A stretch of 64,000 bases of DNA from Minisyncoccia bacterium (GCA_041737125.1 JBGSSJ010000013.1:6236-70235), one strand, 5' to 3'; shown: positions 1 through 27,849, counted from the first letter of the stretch. A program made the numbers and translations. The notes: generated from the letters alone by a model not told the origin.

Positions 1-895
1 CTGGTGTGCCTACCGGTGCTCTAAAGTCCGTCCCATAGTGGAACCTGCCCCACCTAGGACCAAAAGGTGATGTCATAAAAGGAGTTTTTACTGGAAAAGA
101 AAGTACACCAGAGCCTGCTTTGGGTAAGCTATTTGGATCTAGTATAAATTGAAGTTTTGCTTCGTAATCGTCTAGCTCTTTCTCGAAAGTATCCTTAAGT
201 TTTTGGCGTTCAGCTAGAAGCTTCTTATACTCGGATTCTTTATTCTTGGTTTGTGATAGTAATGTATCCTTCTCTTTTTTAGTTACATCGATTACAACTT
301 TCTTACCAGTTAGTGTTTGCTTTAATTCTGATAAATTCTTATACTCAACTTCCTTCTTATCTTTTGTAATATCTAATTCAACTTTCTGTTTATTTATCTC
401 TCTTATATTCACACGCACTTGTTCATTCAAAGCAATGATATTATTATACTCCCTCGTCATTTCACTTATGTCTTCTTCTGCGAGTATGCGCTCTAGTGGT
501 GTGATATTGTCATAAGTATCTAAAGTGCGGAACATTTTTCCTAACAGTAAACGTGATTGTTGTATAGTTCTTTCTTTATCTGTTATATCTTCATCTATAT
601 TTTTAATAACCAGATTTGTTGCTGTAATCTTCTTCTGTGTTTGTTCTAATTCTTTGGTCAGTTTAGTACGAGTAAGATTAAGTTCAGCTACAATCTTTGC
701 CAGGCTGTTTGCTTCGCCACTTGTAGTAGTTATCTTGTCTTGATACTGTTTTATTTCACGATCGAGGGCCTCTATCTGTGAATTTATGTCATTTATCTGC
801 CTCTTCACACTCTCTGCAGTATCAGCAAATAAACTATGTGAAGTAAATCCACATAATATAATAAAAATTACAATAATTATTTTCTTCGAATGCAT
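1..895 (-). CDS. M23-family peptidase with long N-terminal coiled coil (EnvC/LytM-like); partial, C-terminus lies off the left edge
   Basis: Read by hand from the minus strand. ATG at 893-895, signal-like N-terminus MHSKKIIIVIFIILCGFTSHSLFA, about 250 aa rich in K/E/L heptads, then an M23 signature ...FGPRWGRFHYGTDFRAPVGTP at the window edge. Absent from the ORF track because it is truncated. Confidence 0.6.
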   Translation of the reverse strand, partial: MHSKKIIIVIFIILCGFTSHSLFADTAESVKRQINDINSQIEALDREIKQYQDKITTTSGEANSLAKIVAELNLTRTKLTKELEQTQKKITATNLVIKNIDEDITDKERTIQQSRLLLGKMFRTLDTYDNITPLERILAEEDISEMTREYNNIIALNEQVRVNIREINKQKVELDITKDKKEVEYKNLSELKQTLTGKKVVIDVTKKEKDTLLSQTKNKESEYKKLLAERQKLKDTFEKELDDYEAKLQFILDPNSLPKAGSGVLSFPVKTPFMTSPFGPRWGRFHYGTDFRAPVGTP

Positions 896-16335: not shown

Positions 16336-17139
16336 TTATTTTTTGGGGATTAAATTTTTAACCAATTCATTATAGCAAATCCAATGCGAATCTGTCTCTA
16401 TCTCAAGTGGACCTATTGGTACTATCAATGGCTTATGCCCAGTAGTTTTCGTGACATAATCAATAGCTGGGAGCACCACCTCGCGACTAAACTCACCGTC
16501 CTCATCATCTAGTAAGAAATTCTCAAATAGTATTCCATGGCAAAGAAATAATAAAAAGAAATTTTTATAATATATTTTCGCTCCTCCTCCATTATTTTTA
16601 AACCAACTTGATGCTTCGTAGAAATTTAATTTTGAAATCTCATAATTATGAAAAAGTTTTCTATGGAAATCTTGAAGCGGCTCACCCCATAAAGTCTTTA
16701 CATCTTTCAATTTTTCTCCATCATATTCATTAAAATCAACAATAGTAAATTTTTCTATTGGATAAATATCATTTTTATTAGCATCCCCATGTACTCGGAG
16801 TTGACCAAGTGAGTGCTTAAATTCATTATTGGAAGTAAATTTATCATCTAAATATTCAAAAAATACAGTTTTTAAATTATGATCATTCGTAATAGATATG
16901 AAATGCCTTGCATCATGGTTAGGTGTCGCAATCTGGCGAAACTGTACTCCACATGGTCCATTCTGTTTAAGTACTTCTGGTATATCGCCTTTTAGCAATT
17001 CTTCAATTTTGATCATTAAAGATGGATCTTTTTTTCTATCCTCTAGGATTTTAAGTGCTGCTGATAAGGGAGTATAAACGAAATCGTTAAAAAGACTTCG
17101 ATTAGACATGATCTTGTTATAGTCAGTTTCTTGATCCAT
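16336..17139 (-). CDS. hypothetical protein
   Basis: 267 aa soluble protein with no motif I recognise. One nucleotide separates it from the histidine kinase gene, so co-transcription is likely. Confidence 0.4.
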   Translation of the reverse strand: MDQETDYNKIMSNRSLFNDFVYTPLSAALKILEDRKKDPSLMIKIEELLKGDIPEVLKQNGPCGVQFRQIATPNHDARHFISITNDHNLKTVFFEYLDDKFTSNNEFKHSLGQLRVHGDANKNDIYPIEKFTIVDFNEYDGEKLKDVKTLWGEPLQDFHRKLFHNYEISKLNFYEASSWFKNNGGGAKIYYKNFFLLFLCHGILFENFLLDDEDGEFSREVVLPAIDYVTKTTGHKPLIVPIGPLEIETDSHWICYNELVKNLIPKK

Positions 17140-17140
17140 A

Positions 17141-17566
17141 TTATTGATTTTCGTCTTCTCTTATAGTTTCTGAATCTACTATTGTAGACTCTTCTTCATT
17201 TAATACAGATTCAGGGAAAAGACATAGCTCACCTTCTATATCTTCTTCTGTACATTCAGTTTTCACACATGAATCGGCGTTTTCCTTACAGAAATTTGTA
17301 CAATCTTCATTTTCACACATAGCAAAGTCGTTTGCATTTATGGTGTATTTACTATAATAAGAAAGATTATTTGGAGGACATTCATCAGCAATACTACAGT
17401 CTCGATAAAAACAAGTCTCACTTGTACTATCACAATTAGTTTCCACAATGAAATAATAGTCCTTTTTCAAATAGAAATTATAAAAAGAAACAGCCACTAC
17501 AACAAAGCAACTAAATAGTAATATATAGATAAATGTATTGTGACTTTTAATATCTTCTTCTGGCAT
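17141..17566 (-). CDS. membrane-anchored Cys-rich acidic protein (hypothetical)
   Basis: 141 aa. N-terminal TM (FIYILLFSCFVVVAVSF), then a 12-Cys extracytoplasmic region with an acidic tail. Confidence 0.4.
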   Translation of the reverse strand: MPEEDIKSHNTFIYILLFSCFVVVAVSFYNFYLKKDYYFIVETNCDSTSETCFYRDCSIADECPPNNLSYYSKYTINANDFAMCENEDCTNFCKENADSCVKTECTEEDIEGELCLFPESVLNEEESTIVDSETIREDENQ

Positions 17567-17586: not shown

Positions 17587-18525
17587 TTAGCTAAATAAGA
17601 ATATACTTCCGACAATCATAACTCCGATTGCAATTATTTTTGGTACCAGGACTTTCTTTGAAAGATTTTCCTTGACGATATGAGGAAGGAACTTTGTTCC
17701 GAGTACAGTGAGAATCAGTACTATCGCTGGCTGGAATGTGCCCACGAGGTAAACCATAGTTACTGGAGCAAGAAGTAAAGCAAAGTTCGTCAGTAGATTA
17801 CCAGAGACAGTAGCAAGCTCACTTATAGTATTGACTATGAATATTTTCACCCCGCCTTTATGGTTCATATTCATAAATTCACGCCTATACTTCGGCACGA
17901 ATAAGTATATGATTATCCCTGTAATACCAAGCCCAACATATTCCCAGAAAGAAGAAACCCAGAAATCCCCTTCTATGGTAACGTATTTAAATATTATTCC
18001 AGATAATGCTACAAGTATGCACGCAAGTAACATATAGAAAACGGGCTTCCTTTTTATCTGCCTCTTCTCTGCACTAAAATCAATAGAAAGTAATACTAAG
18101 CCCAAGAGCATAATAATAGTTCCTAGTATCTGATTGCTGGTCAAAACCTCGTCCAAGAATATATATCCAAATATATATCCAAACATTGGCACAGTTAGGA
18201 ACCACGGCACAATGTTTGAAACTTCTTCTACCTCAAGTGCATACAAATAAAGCACGACCCATATAATAGTAAGAAGTCCAGTGAAAAGTAATAGAAAGAT
18301 ATCGGAACTTGGTATATCAAATAATCCTCTTACAAATATTGCAATGAGTATGGCGATGACTATACCAATAAGACTAGAGAATAACACTAAACCACCAGAA
18401 CTATGTTCCTTTTCTTTATCTGAATATTTAGAGATAAGGTATTGATCAGCAATATTCACCAATGCCCACAAGAATGTGGCTCCAAGTGCAATGAAAAACC
18501 AGTTCATATTGCATAATAATAACAT
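17587..18525 (-). CDS. EamA/DMT-family transporter
   Basis: 312 aa, about 10 TM helices, with the duplicated EamA-domain pattern. Confidence 0.7.
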   Translation of the reverse strand: MLLLCNMNWFFIALGATFLWALVNIADQYLISKYSDKEKEHSSGGLVLFSSLIGIVIAILIAIFVRGLFDIPSSDIFLLLFTGLLTIIWVVLYLYALEVEEVSNIVPWFLTVPMFGYIFGYIFLDEVLTSNQILGTIIMLLGLVLLSIDFSAEKRQIKRKPVFYMLLACILVALSGIIFKYVTIEGDFWVSSFWEYVGLGITGIIIYLFVPKYRREFMNMNHKGGVKIFIVNTISELATVSGNLLTNFALLLAPVTMVYLVGTFQPAIVLILTVLGTKFLPHIVKENLSKKVLVPKIIAIGVMIVGSIFLFS

Positions 18526-18566: not shown

Positions 18567-19457
18567 ATGGTAGATTCAATAATCAGTGCAAAGAAAGTAG
18601 ATGATGCAGATGTAGTAATACTATCAGCAGCATACGAGAAAACAGCATCAAGTCGGAAAGGCACAGCCAGTGGACCAAAGGCTGTTATTAAGATGCTTGA
18701 TAGTAAGCTTGAACTTTTCGATAGAACTTATAAGAAAAATGTTTGCGACTTTGTAAAAATAGCCCATAAAGATGTGGGTTCTATTAATAATATATCTCCA
18801 CAAAAAGCACTAGATAGAATAGTAAATGAATCAACTAAAATTCTAGATAAGAATAAGTTTGTATTTCTCCTCGGTGGTGAGCACTCTGTGTCATTAGGAT
18901 TACTTACAGCATTATCTAGAAAGTTTGATCCCAAAGATGTCACAGTATTACAGATAGATGCGCATTGTGATCTTCGTAATGATGATAGTGATTACAGTGA
19001 TAACCCTACGAACCTTGCTCACTCTTGTGTGCTTCGCAGAGTAAATGAACTAGGCTATCCTTTAGTTCAAGTAGGTATCCGTACATACTATAAAGGCGAA
19101 TATGAGTACTTTTCTAATCCCAAAAATAATATAACGACTTTTGAATGGGGTAATAAAAATAAAATACCAAGTATAGACGATGTATTAAAATCAATTAAAA
19201 CTAAATATGTATATATTACAATCGATGTCGATGGATTCGACCCTAGCGTGATGCCTGGTACTGGTACTGCAGTCCAAGGAGGACTCGAGTGGTTGTATGG
19301 AGTAGAATTACTAGAACAAATTATTAAGTCTAAAGAATTAATAGGAGCAGATATAGTAGAAGTATCCCCTATGAAAGATTCCATCCTCACAGAGTATGGA
19401 GCAGCTCAGTTATTATATGGAATGATTGCTCACAAATACAGAAATAAATTAATATAA
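18567..19457 (+). CDS. speB: agmatinase / arginase-family ureohydrolase
   Basis: GGEHSVSLG, QIDAHCDLR and ITIDVDGFDPSVMPGTGT are the Mn-binding motifs of the arginase/agmatinase family. Confidence 0.8.
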   Translation: MVDSIISAKKVDDADVVILSAAYEKTASSRKGTASGPKAVIKMLDSKLELFDRTYKKNVCDFVKIAHKDVGSINNISPQKALDRIVNESTKILDKNKFVFLLGGEHSVSLGLLTALSRKFDPKDVTVLQIDAHCDLRNDDSDYSDNPTNLAHSCVLRRVNELGYPLVQVGIRTYYKGEYEYFSNPKNNITTFEWGNKNKIPSIDDVLKSIKTKYVYITIDVDGFDPSVMPGTGTAVQGGLEWLYGVELLEQIIKSKELIGADIVEVSPMKDSILTEYGAAQLLYGMIAHKYRNKLI

Positions 19458-19460
19458 AAT

Positions 19461-19492
19461 AAAATCCCATTAAATTTACTTAATGGGATTTT
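19461..19492. terminator. bidirectional terminator between speB and the DUF62 gene
   Basis: aaaatcccattaa-atttac-ttaatgggatttt. Confidence 0.8.
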
Positions 19493-19495
19493 ATT

Positions 19496-20266
19496 TTATA
19501 TTTTCGTTCCTACTTCTAAGTTAAGAATTTTCGATGCAGGTTGCCTCTGGACTACGATCTCTACAAATCTCTTATCTTTATAACCGGAGCTCCCTTTCGT
19601 AAAGTAGCCTTTGCCATCTTTGGGCACATCCGTCAGTCTTTCTATAAATTCATAAGGCAATGTTGTATGATTTGTAAATTCTGAGCCTTCTTCGCATACG
19701 ATAGTAGTTTTACAATTACCAAAGCAATCCACATACCAGACATAGTTCTCATCACCGAAGTCATAAACTTCACCATTCTTCGCATTAATTTCTTTGCCTT
19801 GATAAATCCAATTCGTAAGGTGGGGCAAATATTCGAAGCTTCGGAATTGTGATAACGATATCCTCTTTGCTTCTGCTTCAGGCAAGAATTGTACACATAC
19901 AGTATAAACATCTGTTTCGGATATTTCGGATATAAGTCCTAGCTTCTTGGCTAGTGTAAAACAATTCGGTGTACCAATAACTGTAATTTTTCCAATTTTA
20001 CCAAAGCAAAATGGTATGCCATTGGGATATCTTTCCTTCGCACCCCTAGGTGCTACATTGACCACAATAATACCCTCTGTGTCATTATATGCATCTAGTG
20101 CATCAATAAAACAACCAGAAGCTTCAAGCTCCCCTTTAGCACCAAGATCATTGTTAATACCTATAAATGTTATATTTGTAGTATTACCCAAAAGAGCTTT
20201 GTATCTTATTTCTTGGCGACTACGAGCATTCGCATCCGCACAATCTGAAATGATAGTTATCTGCAT
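19496..20266 (-). CDS. DUF62 / SAM hydroxide adenosyltransferase-like protein (SalL/FlA fold)
   Basis: 256 aa. N-terminus ITIISDCAD (compare I-x-x-x-SDFG) and IIVVNVAPRG (compare VVDPGVG) resemble the SAM hydrolase family. Based on recalled family signatures only. Confidence 0.45.
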   Translation of the reverse strand: MQITIISDCADANARSRQEIRYKALLGNTTNITFIGINNDLGAKGELEASGCFIDALDAYNDTEGIIVVNVAPRGAKERYPNGIPFCFGKIGKITVIGTPNCFTLAKKLGLISEISETDVYTVCVQFLPEAEAKRISLSQFRSFEYLPHLTNWIYQGKEINAKNGEVYDFGDENYVWYVDCFGNCKTTIVCEEGSEFTNHTTLPYEFIERLTDVPKDGKGYFTKGSSGYKDKRFVEIVVQRQPASKILNLEVGTKI

Positions 20267-20269
20267 ATA

Positions 20270-21289
20270 TTACGCTGTATACTTTTCTATAAGTTTATTA
20301 GCTTCTTCAGGATTTGCTTTACATTCAAGTAGAGCTGTGAGCATAAGCGGAGCTACGATTGTGGCATCGGATTCTATGACATACATCGGTGTGTCTTTGG
20401 TAAGTTTGTCCCATGTAATCTTCTCATTTGGGGTAGCACCGGAGTATGAACCATATGAAGTCGTAGAGTCAGATATCTGGCAGAAGTAAGCCCAAGGCTT
20501 TGCCTCTTGCTCCATATCGTACTTGAGTGACGGTACTACGCATATTGGGAAGTCACCAGCAATACCTCCGCCTATTTGGAAGAAACCTATTCCCTCACCT
20601 TTTGATAGTTCTTGATACTGATCATAAAATGCACCCATGTACTCAATACCTGACTTTGCAATAGACGCACTTGCATCACCATGCTTCACATGTGAAGCAA
20701 ATATATTCCCAAAAGTAGAGTCTTCATATCCTGGCACAACTATCGGCAAGTTTTTCTCTGCAGCTGCAAGTAGCCAGCATTCATCAGCATTACCTTCATG
20801 CTTCTCTTTATCGAGCGCCTGTATCAAATCATAGAAGTATTCATGCCAGAATTTGCGTATACCTTCCTTCGTAGCATTCTCCCACATAGGCACAATGTGC
20901 TTCTCCACTGCGCGGAAAGCTTCGTCCTCGGGGATACTAGTGTCTGTAACTCGGCGCATTCTATTATCAAGTATTGCAGTGTCATCTTCTTTAGTGAAAT
21001 ACCTGTAATCAGGGAAATCTTTGTAGCTATTATGAGCAACTAGACGGAATAGTGATTCCTCAAGGTTCGCACCTGTAACAGACATACCGTGTATAAGTCC
21101 TGCACGAATAGCAGGAGCAAGCACGATACCAAGCTGAGCAGATGACATCGCACCAGCGACAGCCCAGAACATCTTTCCACCTTTCTCTGCATGACGCCAG
21201 TAAGCTATAAGTGCATCACGAGTAGCACGAGCATTAAAGTTCTTGTAATTCTTAAGCACGAATTCTAGTGTAGGGAGATTACTTTGCAT
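20270..21289 (-). CDS. deoxyhypusine synthase-like protein (DHS / homospermidine synthase family)
   Basis: 339 aa. GAMSSAQLGIVLAPAIRAGLIHGMSVTGANLEESL parallels the DHS block GFTSNLISSGIRE..VTTAGGVEEDL. C-terminus GATPNEKITWDKL...VAPLMLTALLE parallels GARPDEAVSWGKI...VFPLLVAETFA. Confidence 0.65.
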   Translation of the reverse strand: MQSNLPTLEFVLKNYKNFNARATRDALIAYWRHAEKGGKMFWAVAGAMSSAQLGIVLAPAIRAGLIHGMSVTGANLEESLFRLVAHNSYKDFPDYRYFTKEDDTAILDNRMRRVTDTSIPEDEAFRAVEKHIVPMWENATKEGIRKFWHEYFYDLIQALDKEKHEGNADECWLLAAAEKNLPIVVPGYEDSTFGNIFASHVKHGDASASIAKSGIEYMGAFYDQYQELSKGEGIGFFQIGGGIAGDFPICVVPSLKYDMEQEAKPWAYFCQISDSTTSYGSYSGATPNEKITWDKLTKDTPMYVIESDATIVAPLMLTALLECKANPEEANKLIEKYTA

Positions 21290-21426
21290 ATATAGAAAGC
21301 GAAGTAAATTATTTTATGAAAAAATGTCTGGCCGAGCTCATTCAATTAATAAATTATGTTGAGCGAGGAGAACAGAGGACTTTTTTCAGAATATAATTTA
21401 CGTAGTTTAATTAAAATTAATAATAA

Positions 21427-22806
21427 TTACCATCCGAAATTTTTACCAACATCATCTGGTGACTCTCTTTTGCGAGCGACCACGATATGACCATTCTCTA
21501 TTATAAGCTTTAATGGCGAAGAAAGCATGCAGTGGTGCGCAGCTAGTGGATCCTGATATGCACCAGTGTCGTGAACTACGACATACATAGCCTCACCACT
21601 AGAACTATCAAAGTCCGGAAGTGTGACTGTACCATGAACTCCTGTGTATATGTCATCAGAGTCACAGCTTGATCCTGCAAGCCATACTTCATTCAGATTA
21701 TTGTCACCCTTATTATTCGCTGGTGATATAGCCCACTTCTGACCAATAGCCCAAGTATCGAGCAAGTCATTCATAAAGCTTCCATCTATGACGTACCACT
21801 TCTTCGCAGGACTCTTCTTATTCGTAATAGCTTTCGTATCAATAATCTTAAACACAGTTATCTGTGCAGGAGCCACGATATAGCGACCCCATTCACAAAT
21901 CAGGTTCGGGTGTGGAAGTCCGCGCTTCTCTGATTCAGACTTCACAAGCTTGAACATCCTCTCCATCAGCTTTTCTATTGGATAACTTTTATTACGAGTG
22001 TACGGTATCGGCATACCACCTCCTATATCTATAGTATCGAGCATTGGATTCTTCTCTTTGAGTTGGAAGTACACATCTAGTGCATATTTGACTGGACCTA
22101 GTACGTCGGAGAGCTTCTCAATCTGTGAACCTATATGATAGTGTAGAATTTTCAAATTCTTAAATGATCCCATCTCAAGTATTTCTTTTGCAGAAAATCC
22201 GAAGCGATCTATCGGCTTATTCCAGTAGGAATTTGCTTTGATCGGCATGTCTAGGCGGATACCTACATCGTACTTCGAATACTGTAAGAATTTCAATTCA
22301 TTCGGTCCTTCAATAAGCGGGAAAATTTTCACCCCTTTATGCTGCATGTCATCGATAAGTGATATATATTTGTCCGTCTTCGGGCCAGAGCAAAGTATGC
22401 GGATATTCGGATTAAATGTCTCTTGCTCGAGCATCTTCTTGATAAGCCAGAGGTCGTTGTATGATGAAGTCTCAAGGTGAGCGCCTTCACCGACGAGTGC
22501 CATAACTACCTCTTTGTTCTGATTTACTTTCATCGGATAGTGGTAGAAGAATTTGCCTAAGTAGCCTGTCTTCTTCGACAAGTCTTTCACTAAGTCTAGG
22601 AAGTCCTCAAGCCTCTCTTCAATAACAAAAGGCATCAATATCTCAAGTGATGTTCCGAACTTCTCCGCCATATAGCGGACGTTATATATGTTGTGACCTT
22701 CTTTAACAATTAAATCTCCGTCTTTGTTGTAATCGAAATATTGAGTGTTAAATTCTTTCACACCAATCTTCCAAAGCTTCTTTGAAGCTATAGAGCGTTT
22801 AGTCAT
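21427..22806 (-). CDS. speA: PLP-dependent arginine decarboxylase, short SpeA-like (Orn/Lys/Arg decarboxylase family, alanine racemase fold)
   Basis: FFYHYPMKVNQN (PLP lysine; compare YPIKVNQ), ILHYHIGSQ (compare HFHLGSQ), DIGGGMPIPY, GSSCDSDD. Its N-terminal region follows SpeA. Confidence 0.7.
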   Translation of the reverse strand: MTKRSIASKKLWKIGVKEFNTQYFDYNKDGDLIVKEGHNIYNVRYMAEKFGTSLEILMPFVIEERLEDFLDLVKDLSKKTGYLGKFFYHYPMKVNQNKEVVMALVGEGAHLETSSYNDLWLIKKMLEQETFNPNIRILCSGPKTDKYISLIDDMQHKGVKIFPLIEGPNELKFLQYSKYDVGIRLDMPIKANSYWNKPIDRFGFSAKEILEMGSFKNLKILHYHIGSQIEKLSDVLGPVKYALDVYFQLKEKNPMLDTIDIGGGMPIPYTRNKSYPIEKLMERMFKLVKSESEKRGLPHPNLICEWGRYIVAPAQITVFKIIDTKAITNKKSPAKKWYVIDGSFMNDLLDTWAIGQKWAISPANNKGDNNLNEVWLAGSSCDSDDIYTGVHGTVTLPDFDSSSGEAMYVVVHDTGAYQDPLAAHHCMLSSPLKLIIENGHIVVARKRESPDDVGKNFGW

Positions 22807-22898
22807 TTCTTTTTACCAAGCAGTCTGCCTGCAATAAAATAATAATATGAATATCATAGCAGATTTGTGGTAGATGTAAATAGAGACAATTTATAATT

Positions 22899-22932
22899 AA
22901 AGGGCTTACCTGCATAATACAGATAAGCCCTT
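22899..22932 (-). terminator. hairpin downstream of the GNAT gene
   Basis: aagggcttacctg...cagataagccctt. Confidence 0.55.
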
Positions 22933-22940
22933 ATACAACC

Positions 22941-23513
22941 TTACGTCATCACCCAAATACTTTTTTTAAGTAAAGGACAAGTAGAACATCTACTGCCAAA
23001 AAATTCTTTGTTTTTCTGAGCATTTTCACACTCACAAAAGCGTATTTTTTCTTTGACTGTTTTGTATTCTGGCAACTTATCAATGTCCTGCCAACCCAAT
23101 TTTTCAAAGAATGAAATTATTGTGTCTTCCTTGGTTACGCTCGTACCAACAAAGCCATTGTCATCAACATATCCCATTCTTATTTTAAGAAACTCCATTC
23201 CAATCCCACTTTTTCTAAAATCAAGATCTACGCAGTTTGAACACAATTCAACTACAGACTTTTTTTTGAAAATAATGGGGGAATGTGTCCTTTCATCTTT
23301 GGACGCAATTATACCAGCAGCCCCTACTATTTTTTCTCCATAGAAGGCAAAAACTGCAAATAATAAATTGTTTCTAAAAAAGGCGGGTGTCCTAGTTAGA
23401 GTGAAGTCACTCTTGCGAGTTTCTTCTGACCACCATTCCAACCATTTTTCAATTTTATTGGTTTTAAAATTGGTAATGGTAACATAACTGACCGGATTGT
23501 TTTTTCTTTTCAT
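22941..23513 (-). CDS. GNAT-like acetyltransferase with C-terminal Cys cluster (putative)
   Basis: 190 aa. Acetyl-CoA-binding-like stretch ...DFRKSGIGMEFL... and a C-terminal CECEN...CSTCP. Confidence 0.35.
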   Translation of the reverse strand: MKRKNNPVSYVTITNFKTNKIEKWLEWWSEETRKSDFTLTRTPAFFRNNLLFAVFAFYGEKIVGAAGIIASKDERTHSPIIFKKKSVVELCSNCVDLDFRKSGIGMEFLKIRMGYVDDNGFVGTSVTKEDTIISFFEKLGWQDIDKLPEYKTVKEKIRFCECENAQKNKEFFGSRCSTCPLLKKSIWVMT

Positions 23514-27214: not shown

Positions 27215-27288
27215 GTCAACAGAGTAGTAGAATTTGGCCATGCTCATAGAGCGTTGAAAACTTGGCCAAAACTCACTACTCTGTCAAA
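27215..27288. promoter_or_regulatory. long imperfect inverted repeat (candidate operator or RNA stem) in the dnaK / regulator divergent region
   Basis: Left arm gtcaACAGAGTAGTaGaaTTTGGCCA, 21-nt spacer, right arm TTGGCCAAAaCtCACTACTCTGTcaaa. Confidence 0.5.
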
Positions 27289-27291
27289 TAT

Positions 27292-27849
27292 ATGAAAGAT
27301 GAGTCCAAAAAACCAAAGAAATCAATACAAAAGGCTATTCTGAAGAATATCGCCCGTAAGAAGACAGCTTCCCTAGAAACAGTGAAGAAAGACCTAGAAG
27401 AGGCTATTCTATGCGAATACGAGCCACAGAAAGGCTCTTATGCTATCGCCCGCTCTATAAGGAACCTACTGTCTGACGGATTAATAGAAGCATTTAATTC
27501 AGAACACAAGCAATACTTCAGGCTGACAAGTGAAGGCAAACAAAAGCTCAACAATATCGCACTCGAATCCGAAGGTGGACTAGTCTCTACTCACTGGGAT
27601 GGGTATTGGCGGATCATACTTCTCGACTTACCAGAAGATCGTAAGAGTGAGCGCGAAGCACTGCGCTACCTACTGAAGAAAGCTTCTTTTGTATGCATCA
27701 AGAATTCAGTCTGGATATCTATGTACCCATACGAGCATCTATTCACAAATATAAAAAAGGATCTCGGTCTGACAACAGAGATGATGATAATAGTTACAGA
27801 TAAGATAGATGAAGAGACAGAGAATTCTTTCTTTAAATTAATTAAATAA
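27292..27849 (+). CDS. putative winged-helix transcriptional regulator, divergent from dnaK
   Basis: The track ORF starts at a TTG at 27262; an ATG at 27292 is more plausible. YFRLTSEGKQKL resembles the PadR-type recognition-wing motif. Confidence 0.35.
   Translation: MKDESKKPKKSIQKAILKNIARKKTASLETVKKDLEEAILCEYEPQKGSYAIARSIRNLLSDGLIEAFNSEHKQYFRLTSEGKQKLNNIALESEGGLVSTHWDGYWRIILLDLPEDRKSEREALRYLLKKASFVCIKNSVWISMYPYEHLFTNIKKDLGLTTEMMIIVTDKIDEETENSFFKLIK

What the first reader, a model, noticed from the sequence alone, without database searches (positions are those of the whole stretch)
18567..23513. Polyamine / deoxyhypusine-type gene cluster: agmatinase, DUF62 SAM hydrolase-like, DHS-like, short SpeA-like decarboxylase, GNAT
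Five adjacent genes encode an arginase-family agmatinase, a SAM hydroxide adenosyltransferase-like protein, a deoxyhypusine synthase homolog and a GNAT. The cluster also holds a 459-aa SpeA-like PLP decarboxylase, whereas canonical SpeA is about 630 aa. The DHS homolog has strong N- and C-terminal similarity to eukaryotic and archaeal DHS. ADC followed by agmatinase gives putrescine. The DHS-like enzyme could then make homospermidine or modify a translation factor. Linking a SAM-cleaving DUF62 enzyme to this pathway is not a textbook arrangement.
Basis: partly seen in the sequence, partly recalled or inferred. Interest (0 to 1): 0.55.

Follow-up and report, generated by a model that had tools for sequence, protein, structure and literature searches.

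The report
Agmatine-route homospermidine operon plus two passengers
Three of the five genes form an already described bacterial pathway that makes the polyamine homospermidine from arginine, found here in a tiny-genome Patescibacteria bacterium, while the odd SAM-hydrolase-like gene and the acetyltransferase are local insertions and not conserved parts of the pathway.

Summary
All five ORFs exist at the stated coordinates and the family calls hold, with caveats. The 256-aa protein is DUF62-like only by fold and by its C-terminal domain.

The conserved unit is three genes. One is a short AR-fold arginine decarboxylase lacking the four-helix bundle. One is a deoxyhypusine-synthase homolog of SpeY/CdmS type. 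One is a convergent agmatinase-family gene. This matches the published agmatine pathway: SpeY joins two agmatines into N1,N9-bis(guanidino)homospermidine (G44G), which a ureohydrolase turns into homospermidine.

In relatives the backbone is DnaK-DnaJ-ADC-SpeY followed by SpeB or AguB+AguA, without the DUF62-like gene or the GNAT. The DUF62-like gene lies beside speY in only one of 80 speY loci, and in four of 80 species-level loci of its own family. Those cases form one lineage plus one syntenic relative. The GNAT has no detectable homolog.

Verdict: a new member of a known pathway; the "non-textbook" link is lineage-specific.

Two side observations:
- This SpeY clade stays about 80% identical across Patescibacteria, Myxococcota and Acidobacteriota.
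- The DUF62-like family is a widespread Patescibacteria branch that lacks the known catalytic triad.

The parts
21427..22806 (-). Short ('ancestral') alanine-racemase-fold arginine decarboxylase; first gene of the operon; makes agmatine
   Evidence: PF02784 at 75.9 bits plus PF00278; best NCBIfam models are SpeA NF003763 at 173.6 bits and TIGR01273 at 157.8 bits, over the N-terminal two thirds only. Against E. coli SpeA (3NZQ), window residues up to about 330 align with 33 to about 385 and window 334-428 with 482-579. About 95-100 SpeA residues therefore have no counterpart. The PLP-lysine motif YPMKVNQ matches YPIKVNQ. Found directly upstream of speY, or within about 3 kb downstream of it, in about 32 of 43 low-GC loci.
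20270..21289 (-). SpeY/CdmS-type deoxyhypusine synthase homolog; predicted agmatine homocoupling enzyme (diagmatine / G44G synthase)
   Evidence: PF01916 at 126.8 bits. HHalign to human DHS, probability 93%: K329=K295, E323=E289 and W327=W293 are kept, while D243=N195 and D316=Y282 are non-acidic, as in CdmS (PMC10981699). Relatives are flanked by ADC and by either an agmatinase-family gene or AguB+AguA.
18567..19457 (+). Agmatinase-family ureohydrolase, convergent with the operon; predicted G44G (diagmatine) ureohydrolase that gives homospermidine
   Evidence: TIGR01230 at 211.6 bits, above the 174.3 cut-off; PF00491 at 1.5e-58. The metal-ligand motifs GGEHS, DAHCD and DVDGFDP are visible in the translation. 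An arginase-family gene or AguA/AguB lies downstream of speY in about 40 of 43 low-GC loci.
19496..20266 (-). Divergent DUF62-fold protein, co-transcribed with speY in this lineage only; a passenger or accessory gene of unknown activity
   Evidence: Fold match to SAM hydrolases and halogenases. Only the C-domain is detectable by sequence. The start codon is 3 nt after the speY stop. It is absent beside speY in 79 of 80 speY loci. Its family has no conserved neighbour.
19453..19500 (.). Bidirectional terminator-like hairpin between the convergent speB and the DUF62-like gene
   Evidence: A 20-pair stem found on both strands; sequence read directly.
22853..22880 (-). Best promoter-like site, upstream of the ADC gene; a candidate only
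   Evidence: TTTACA-16-TATGAT, 10 of 12 matches with TG before the -10. The scan as a whole is not enriched over shuffles, so this is weak evidence.
22941..23513 (-). Orphan GNAT-like gene inserted between dnaJ and the ADC gene; not a conserved member of the pathway
   Evidence: Weak GNAT Pfam matches. No NCBIfam match, no PDB relative, and no homolog other than itself. Relatives have DnaJ directly followed by ADC.
17587..18525 (-). EamA/DMT-family transporter, a recurrent neighbour of speB and speY; possible arginine, agmatine or polyamine carrier (inference)
   Evidence: PF00892 at 64 bits. Homologs lie within a few kb of speY in L087, L093, L095, L105, L114, L117 and L138, in L006-L008, and in L166 and L167.

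Best explanation
The functional unit is a three-gene homospermidine pathway that runs through agmatine.

1. The 459-aa PLP enzyme decarboxylates arginine to agmatine.
2. The 339-aa SpeY/CdmS-type DHS homolog uses NAD+ and its catalytic lysine (K295) to transfer the 4-guanidinobutyl part of one agmatine onto a second agmatine. This gives N1,N9-bis(guanidino)homospermidine (G44G, also called diagmatine or caldomycin).
3. The convergent agmatinase-family enzyme removes both urea groups to give homospermidine.

Putrescine and S-adenosylmethionine are not needed.

In this genome the ADC gene, speY and the 256-aa DUF62-fold gene are probably one transcript that ends at a bidirectional hairpin shared with speB. 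The DUF62-fold gene and the GNAT are lineage-specific insertions into a conserved DnaK-DnaJ-ADC-SpeY-SpeB backbone and are not required for the pathway.

Shown here: family and fold assignments, the active-site pattern, the operon layout, and the conservation or lack of conservation of each adjacency. Inferred: substrates, products and co-transcription.
For: Family assignments.

SpeY-type pocket, with all residues invariant in 71 clade members: catalytic Lys, Glu and Trp kept; human DHS D243 and D316 replaced by N195 and Y282. The CdmS paper names K299 and E293, and F204/L286 in place of D243/D316 (PMC10981699).

ADC: lacks about 95-100 residues where E. coli SpeA has its inserted domain, and keeps the PLP lysine. 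This matches the ancestral AR-fold ADC reported in the Winogradskyella speY cluster (PMC13625781).

Context in 80 metagenome loci whose SpeY is at least 80% identical. Among 43 low-GC loci, about 32 have this ADC. About 40 have an agmatinase-family gene (TIGR01230 at 197 bits for the second type) or AguB-like (242 bits) plus AguA-like (280-287 bits) downstream. The other 3 have under 0.9 kb of downstream sequence. These are the two module types, speY+DUH and speY+DIH+amidohydrolase, shown experimentally by Li et al. 2026 (PMC13625781).

Operon layout.
Against: - No enzyme of this clade has been assayed.
- The protein falls far below the curated SpeY equivalog cut-offs: NF001980 at 98 bits against 450, and NF002699 at 68 bits against 500. 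Its nearest full-length relatives outside the clade are only 39-48% identical and are equally unassigned.
- I could not place any experimentally tested SpeY relative to this clade, because no sequences were available.
- In about 37 high-GC loci (Myxococcota, Acidobacteriota) the same clade has no ADC or agmatinase within 7 kb.
- In the closest relatives that keep the DUF62-like gene (L007, L008, L166) there is no ADC gene upstream.
- Whether the agmatinase homolog prefers G44G or agmatine cannot be read from the sequence.
Confidence: 0.75

Rival explanations
1. ADC plus a true agmatinase make putrescine, and the DHS-like enzyme then makes homospermidine from putrescine, with or without spermidine, as plant HSS and eukaryotic DHS do.
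For: The 296-aa protein passes the agmatinase equivalog model TIGR01230. This SpeY clade is distant from the curated SpeY models, so its substrate is untested.
Against: All eight tested bacterial SpeY proteins make G44G from agmatine. They give homospermidine only when an agmatinase homolog is present. A canonical agmatinase would compete for the SpeY substrate (PMC13625781). The acidic residues that distinguish human DHS (D243, D316) are N195 and Y282 here. No spermidine-synthesis gene was noticed among the window's 64 ORFs, though most of them were not scanned against family models.
Confidence: 0.1
2. The DUF62-fold protein is a working part of the pathway in this lineage. For example, it could use or cleave SAM to modify, regulate or feed the polyamine route.
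For: It is probably co-transcribed with speY, with a 3-nt gap. The position between speY and speB is kept over considerable divergence. In L166 and L167 the DUF62-like protein is 66% and 59% identical. In L012 it is 55% identical (SpeY 64%, SpeB 45%) and on the opposite strand. The C-domain residues that align with fluorinase D210, N215 and S269 are invariant.
Against: Of 80 speY loci, 79 lack it. Of 80 species-level loci of the family, 75 have no polyamine gene nearby. No neighbour is conserved, and at 61% identity the gene sits in the str operon. L012 shares the DnaJ-ADC-SpeY flank with the window, so it reflects shared ancestry and not an independent event. The pathway chemistry needs only PLP and NAD+ (PMC10407285).
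Confidence: 0.1
3. The DHS-like enzyme modifies a protein such as EF-P with an agmatine-derived group, and the agmatinase homolog trims it. This would resemble the agmatine-based aIF5A route proposed for haloarchaea.
For: The clade is unusually conserved: 164 of 339 positions are invariant across three phyla. In high-GC genomes it is not linked to polyamine genes. A haloarchaeal agmatine, DHS and agmatinase scheme has been proposed (PMC5178350; title and abstract only, as listed; I did not read the paper).
Against: Tested SpeY proteins make free G44G (PMC13625781). The pocket pattern matches CdmS. Linkage to AguA+AguB, which act on small molecules, occurs in several relatives. No EF-P gene is in the window, so no supporting link could be found.
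Confidence: 0.04

Closest known systems
SpeY / CdmS agmatine-dependent homospermidine pathway (Thermus thermophilus TTHA1570; Anabaena; Winogradskyella algicola ADC-SpeB-SpeY cluster)
   Same: The same three enzyme families. The same short AR-fold ADC type as in Winogradskyella. The catalytic Lys and guanidino-binding Glu are kept, and the DHS acidic residues are replaced. Relatives show both published module types: speY with a ureohydrolase, and speY with an iminohydrolase and an amidohydrolase.
   Different: The host is a Patescibacteria (CPR) genome, a group not covered in those papers. The SpeY belongs to a clade that no curated equivalog model captures. Two extra genes, DUF62-fold and GNAT, are inserted in this lineage.
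Eukaryotic/archaeal deoxyhypusine synthase (PF01916; human DHS, PDB 1RLZ)
   Same: Same domain family; lysine-dependent mechanism implied; GGG and DA(S/T) motifs aligned.
   Different: Only about 23% identity over 223 aligned columns. D243 and D316 are not acidic. No DHS equivalog model is passed. As far as I know, bacteria lack the eIF5A/aIF5A substrate.
DUF62 SAM hydroxide adenosyltransferase / (R)-SAM hydrolase / chlorinase SalL / fluorinase FlA
   Same: The two-domain fold (TM 0.6-0.69). The C-terminal D-x-FGN and GS-G motifs align with fluorinase D210, F213-N215 and S269.
   Different: The N-domain has no detectable sequence similarity: 0 of 35 members match PF01887, and HHalign probability is at most 0.07%. 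The motifs TDFG, VDPGVGT-R, PDNG and FHGRD are replaced by SDC, NVAPRG, NG-PF and SQFRS. The family has no invariant histidine, so the Asp-Arg-His triad is not conserved.
E. coli biosynthetic arginine decarboxylase SpeA (PDB 3NZQ)
   Same: The PLP barrel and the C-terminal beta domain; the PLP lysine motif.
   Different: Lacks about 95-100 residues of inserted domain and has shorter termini (459 aa against about 630-660 aa).

Membership tests
SpeY / CdmS (agmatine homocoupling DHS homolog) | Deoxyhypusine synthase domain (PF01916) | tested here: met
   126.8 bits against a cut-off of 27, covering residues 17-318.
SpeY / CdmS (agmatine homocoupling DHS homolog) | Catalytic lysine (human K329, CdmS K299) and guanidino-binding Glu (CdmS E293, human E323) | tested here: met
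   K295 and E289 align with K329 and E323 (HHalign probability 93%). Both are invariant in 71 clade sequences.
SpeY / CdmS (agmatine homocoupling DHS homolog) | Non-acidic residues at human DHS D243 and D316 (F204 and L286 in CdmS) | tested here: met
   N195 and Y282, both invariant. The criterion is taken from PMC10981699.
SpeY / CdmS (agmatine homocoupling DHS homolog) | Genomic association with an ADC and with an agmatinase homolog or AguA+AguB | tested here: met
   About 32 and about 40 of 43 low-GC loci respectively.
SpeY / CdmS (agmatine homocoupling DHS homolog) | Passes a curated SpeY equivalog model (NF001980 or NF002699) | tested here: not met
   98.3 bits against 450 and 67.9 bits against 500. 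The same holds for clade members and their nearest relatives. This lowers the claim of orthology to the curated seed sequences. It does not lower the working model.
SpeY / CdmS (agmatine homocoupling DHS homolog) | Forms G44G from two agmatines with NAD+ | not testable with these tools
   Needs expression in E. coli lacking speB, or a purified-enzyme assay with LC-MS.
True deoxyhypusine synthase (hypusination of e/aIF5A) | Passes a DHS equivalog model and keeps the acidic spermidine-binding residues | tested here: not met
   TIGR00321 scores 73.6 bits against 304, and the other DHS models score 53-90 bits against 350-434. D243 and D316 are N and Y here.
Ancestral AR-fold arginine decarboxylase | AR-fold PLP decarboxylase domains with the PLP lysine; closest to SpeA | tested here: met
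   PF02784 plus PF00278. SpeA models score best. The YPMKVNQ motif aligns with SpeA.
Ancestral AR-fold arginine decarboxylase | Lacks the roughly 100-aa four-helix bundle insert of E. coli-type SpeA | tested here: met
   Two-piece alignment to 3NZQ leaves SpeA residues from about 385 to 481 unmatched. The feature is as described in PMC13625781.
Ancestral AR-fold arginine decarboxylase | Specific for L-arginine | not testable with these tools
   The LysA model also scores 132 bits, so specificity needs an assay.
Agmatinase / G44G ureohydrolase (DUH) | Arginase-fold ureohydrolase that passes the agmatinase equivalog model, with metal-ligand motifs | tested here: met
   TIGR01230 at 211.6 bits against 174.3. 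GGEHS, DAHCD and DVDGFDP are present in the translation.
Agmatinase / G44G ureohydrolase (DUH) | Active on G44G and inactive on agmatine | not testable with these tools
   No sequence signature for this is known to me. The kinetics of tested examples are in PMC13625781.
DUF62 SAM hydroxide adenosyltransferase / halogenase family | Two-domain DUF62 fold | tested here: met
   Foldseek probability 1.00, E 3e-10 to 2e-6, against MJ1651, TM, PH0463, SalL and FlA. Model pLDDT is 93.6.
DUF62 SAM hydroxide adenosyltransferase / halogenase family | C-terminal domain PF20257 with the D-x-FGN and GS-G motifs | tested here: met
   The window protein scores 19 bits, below 25.5. All 35 family members match, best E 5.3e-12. 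D180, F182-N184 and S226 align with FlA D210, F213-N215 and S269.
DUF62 SAM hydroxide adenosyltransferase / halogenase family | N-terminal domain PF01887 with the Asp-Arg-His triad (PH0463 D68, R75, H127) | tested here: not met
   0 of 35 members match PF01887. HHalign against real DUF62 N-domains gives probability of at most 0.07%. The family has no invariant His.
DUF62 SAM hydroxide adenosyltransferase / halogenase family | Cleaves SAM at C5' to give adenosine or a 5'-halo-adenosine plus methionine | not testable with these tools
   Needs an enzyme assay.
GNAT acetyltransferase (SpeG/PaiA-type polyamine acetyltransferase considered) | GNAT domain | tested here: met
   PF13673 at 25.7 bits against 23.6 and PF00583 at 22.8 bits against 20.7; marginal.
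GNAT acetyltransferase (SpeG/PaiA-type polyamine acetyltransferase considered) | Recognisable relationship to a polyamine acetyltransferase, or conserved linkage to polyamine genes | tested here: not met
   No NCBIfam match. No PDB relative at E <= 1. No homolog but itself. Absent from the equivalent position in relatives.

The most novel reading that the evidence does not exclude
The 256-aa protein founds an unrecognised, Patescibacteria-wide branch of the SAM hydrolase / halogenase fold. Its nucleophile-activating site is rebuilt: an invariant Asp-Cys pair, NVAPR and QFRS motifs, and no histidine. On this reading it performs a different displacement on SAM or a related adenosyl compound. In this lineage it would have been drawn into the speY operon because its reaction touches polyamine metabolism. 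It might, for example, act on an agmatine- or homospermidine-derived substrate, or balance SAM, methionine and adenosine salvage against a SAM-independent polyamine route.
Probability: 0.08. Interest if true: 0.65.

Novelty: new member of a known kind. Interest (0 to 1): 0.3.

Why it matters
It extends the recently established agmatine-to-G44G-to-homospermidine route to Patescibacteria. These are ultra-small, largely host-dependent bacteria with very few biosynthetic pathways, so keeping a complete polyamine pathway says something about what they cannot obtain from partners.

It also corrects a tempting over-reading. The SAM-hydrolase-like gene and the GNAT are not part of a conserved five-gene system.

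Two leads could repay work. One is a DHS-family clade with no curated model that stays about 80% identical across three phyla. The other is a widespread DUF62-fold family whose catalytic residues differ from every characterised member.

Tried and rejected
1. **Placing the window SpeY next to experimentally tested SpeY proteins.** The paper's supplement is not held. The phage and plasmid collections gave no match. Cluster names for the nearest relatives were uninformative, giving Gemmatimonadota and unnamed MAGs. The relationship to tested enzymes therefore rests on residue pattern and gene context only.

2. **Residue-level alignment of the DUF62-like N-domain to real DUF62 sequences.** The global run gave probability 0.05% and the local runs 0.07%. 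I rejected any claim of specific N-domain equivalences. This includes my own motif-order guesses (D8 with the ribose-binding Asp, N70 or A72 with D68, Q140 or R142 with H127).

3. **L033 (Kaiserbacteria) as a possible third, independent DUF62-polyamine association.** Rejected: three unrelated genes intervene and there is no speY or ADC.

4. **L012 as an independent origin of the adjacency.** Rejected: it shares the DnaJ-ADC-SpeY flank with the window.

5. **EF-P in the window, to test the protein-modification idea.** None found.

6. **Exceptional SpeY conservation as evidence for a macromolecular substrate.** Weakened: within Patescibacteria it tracks DnaK, and one Patescibacteria SpeY (L012) is only 64% identical. 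Inter-phylum transfer with strong purifying selection is sufficient.

7. **Other negative searches.** The Rfam and tRNA scans were empty. Burrell et al. 2010, on the ancestral ADC, is not held.

Full report
**Observation**

Pfam and NCBIfam give the following:
- an agmatinase-family protein (TIGR01230 at 211.6 bits, above its cut-off);
- a deoxyhypusine synthase (DHS) domain protein (PF01916 at 126.8 bits);
- an alanine-racemase-fold PLP decarboxylase closest to SpeA;
- a marginal GNAT.

The 256-aa protein alone only grazes the C-terminal SAM hydroxide adenosyltransferase domain, at 19 bits against a 25.5 cut-off. Its family resolves this. All 35 aligned relatives match that domain (best E 5.3e-12) and none matches the N-terminal DUF62 domain. 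A confident AF2 model (pLDDT 93.6) matches the whole two-domain fold of the DUF62 SAM hydrolases, chlorinase SalL and fluorinase, with probability 1.00, TM 0.6-0.69 and 12-17% identity.

One claim is overstated. Similarity of the 339-aa protein to archaeal and eukaryotic DHS is modest: 39.9 bits to the best PDB chain, and human DHS is not retrieved.

**What the core is**

Recent work shows that the bacterial DHS homolog SpeY (CdmS in Thermus) does not use putrescine. It couples two agmatines to N1,N9-bis(guanidino)homospermidine (G44G). An agmatinase homolog then converts G44G to homospermidine. The SpeY-associated ureohydrolases that were assayed act on G44G and not on agmatine. A short 'ancestral' AR-fold ADC that lacks the roughly 100-aa four-helix bundle occurs in such clusters (PMC13625781, PMC10981699).

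The window fits this on every point I could test.
- **ADC.** It aligns to E. coli SpeA in two pieces, which leaves about 95-100 SpeA residues unmatched, and it keeps the PLP lysine.
- **SpeY-like protein.** I aligned it to a verified human DHS sequence with HHalign, probability 93%. It keeps the catalytic Lys (K295 = K329), Glu (E289 = E323) and Trp (W293). It has Asn and Tyr (N195, Y282) where true DHS has Asp243 and Asp316. The CdmS paper names these as positions where CdmS has non-acidic residues. All of these residues are invariant in 71 distinct clade sequences.

**Gene context**

Starting from speY, I fetched 80 metagenome loci whose SpeY is 80-91% identical. There are 43 low-GC loci, taken as Patescibacteria on composition and synteny.
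- About 32 carry this ADC.
- About 40 carry, downstream, one of three things: the same agmatinase type, a second agmatinase type (TIGR01230 at 197 bits), or an AguB-like plus AguA-like pair (242 and 280-287 bits).
- The remaining three have no room downstream.

These are the two published module types. Where flanks are long enough the backbone reads DnaK-DnaJ-ADC-SpeY-partner, which is the arrangement in the window apart from two extra genes. Several of these loci are near-duplicates from different samples, so the number of independent cases is lower than the counts.

**The two extra genes**

*DUF62-fold gene.* It lies beside speY in one of those 80 loci, and that locus is the same contig as L008. 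Starting from the DUF62-fold family instead, a scan of one genome per species found 194 relatives. By record title most are candidate-phyla (Patescibacteria-type) MAGs, though many TPA bins carry Gammaproteobacteria or Pseudomonadales labels that I did not check.

Of the 80 loci kept, only L006-L008 (about 76% identical) and L012 (55%) have speY alongside. L166 and L167 (66% and 59%) extend the window's own synteny: SpeB, EamA, two hypothetical genes, a histidine kinase and CysRS. L012 shares the DnaJ-ADC-SpeY flank, so it is inherited, although the gene is inverted there. Equally diverged homologs sit elsewhere, one of them between the S7 and EF-G genes. The family has no conserved neighbour at all; the commonest occurs in 10 of 78 loci.

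*GNAT.* It has no homolog other than itself among 5.8 billion proteins, and no PDB relative.

Both genes are therefore lineage-specific insertions. In this genome the DUF62-fold gene is nevertheless probably co-transcribed with speY. Its start codon is 3 nt after the speY stop. A 20-pair bidirectional hairpin follows it, and the best promoter-like site precedes the ADC gene.

**What the DUF62-fold protein may do**

Its C-domain keeps residues that align with fluorinase D210, F213-N215 and S269 (fluorinase sequence verified). From my knowledge of the fluorinase complexes, these contact the methionine and adenine parts of SAM. An adenosyl-amino-acid ligand is therefore plausible, but this is inference.

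The N-domain is another matter. Real DUF62 N-domains recovered from the PDB show the TDFG, VDPGVGT-R, PDNG and FHGRD motifs. PH0463 D68, R75 and H127 sit where I recalled the proposed water-activating triad. The Patescibacteria family has SDC, NVAPRG, NG-PF and SQFRS instead, has no invariant histidine, and shows no significant profile similarity. It is a member of the fold, but it fails the catalytic-motif test for the SAM hydrolase family. Its activity is unknown. Homospermidine synthesis needs PLP and NAD+ and no AdoMet (PMC10407285), so the pathway chemistry does not call for such an enzyme.

**An unexpected property of the SpeY clade**

The best 120 database relatives are all at least 83% identical. 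About half of the metagenome loci are 60-71% GC, and the gene's own third-position GC there is 0.73-0.99. Their sources name them as Polyangiaceae and Acidobacteriota. Even so the protein is 80-83% identical to the one in this 37.6% GC genome.

In an exhaustive search the clade collapses to a single 50%-identity representative. The next full-length relatives are at 39-48% identity, and none of those tested, at 35-48% identity, passes a curated SpeY or DHS model.

A benchmark tempers this.
- Within Patescibacteria, SpeY identity (81-91%) tracks DnaK (77-91%).
- Against the 70% GC loci, the best Hsp70-family match is 37-43%. That match may be a paralog.
- The Patescibacteria locus L012 has a SpeY only 64% identical.

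Inter-phylum transfer plus strong purifying selection is enough to explain the pattern. It also agrees with the patchy, transfer-driven distribution that the SpeY authors describe. In the high-GC genomes the gene is not linked to ADC or agmatinase genes.

**Verdict**

The finding is real. Its core is an instance of a known pathway in a phylum where I found no description of it. The searchable literature mentions only hss with speDC in CPR Kaiserbacteria (PMC10407285).

The feature that made it look unusual, a SAM-cleaving-fold gene tied to polyamine synthesis, is confined to one lineage.

Novelty: new member of a known kind. Interest: modest. The divergent DUF62-fold family and the highly conserved, unmodelled SpeY clade are leads, not results.

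Noticed in passing
window 20270-21289; loci L086-L165: This SpeY-like clade is about 80% identical between a 37.6% GC Patescibacteria genome and 60-71% GC contigs named by their sources as Polyangiaceae and Acidobacteriota. In the high-GC contigs the gene's third-position GC is 0.73-0.99. Of 339 positions, 164 are invariant in 71 sequences. No curated NCBIfam model captures the clade.
   Followed up: partly
window 19496-20266; loci L002-L085, L166-L168: The DUF62-fold family has at least 194 species-level relatives, mostly candidate-phyla (Patescibacteria-type) MAGs by record title. It has 28 invariant residues, including an Asp-Cys pair, and no invariant His. Tandem paralogs occur in 8 of 78 loci. 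In L168 the gene sits between the ribosomal protein S7 gene and the EF-G gene.
   Followed up: partly
window 17587-18525: An EamA/DMT transporter gene recurs next to speB or speY in many relatives (L006-L008, L087, L093, L095, L105, L114, L117, L138, L166, L167). It is a more faithful neighbour than the DUF62-like gene or the GNAT, and a possible arginine, agmatine or polyamine carrier.
   Followed up: partly
loci L091, L096, L097, L108, L115, L118, L121; and L090, L099-L101, L105, L107, L113, L117, L127, L137, L138: Close relatives swap the downstream partner of speY. Some have an AguB-like plus AguA-like pair. Others have a second, co-directional agmatinase type that is only 26-33% identical to the window's SpeB.
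   Followed up: partly
window 22941-23513: The GNAT-like ORF has no homolog other than itself in the 5.8-billion-protein collection. It ends in a Cys-rich tail (CECE...CSTCP).
   Followed up: yes
window 16336-17566: A 141-aa Cys-rich protein and a 267-aa protein, neither with a Pfam match, follow the EamA gene as a conserved pair in the same lineage (L007, L008, L095, L166, L167).
   Followed up: no
window 1-64000: No tRNA gene (ARAGORN) and no Rfam family at gathering threshold in the whole 64 kb.
   Followed up: no
loci L020, L023, L025, L026 and others: Many TPA metagenome bins that carry the DUF62-like gene are labelled 'uncultured Gammaproteobacteria' or 'Pseudomonadales'. Their proteins nevertheless cluster with Patescibacteria ones. 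The labels may be wrong; I did not check.
   Followed up: no
window 27262-27849: A 195-aa protein with a PaaX central Cas2-like domain (66.5 bits) lies between the DnaK gene and an upstream 203-aa gene that I did not scan.
   Followed up: no
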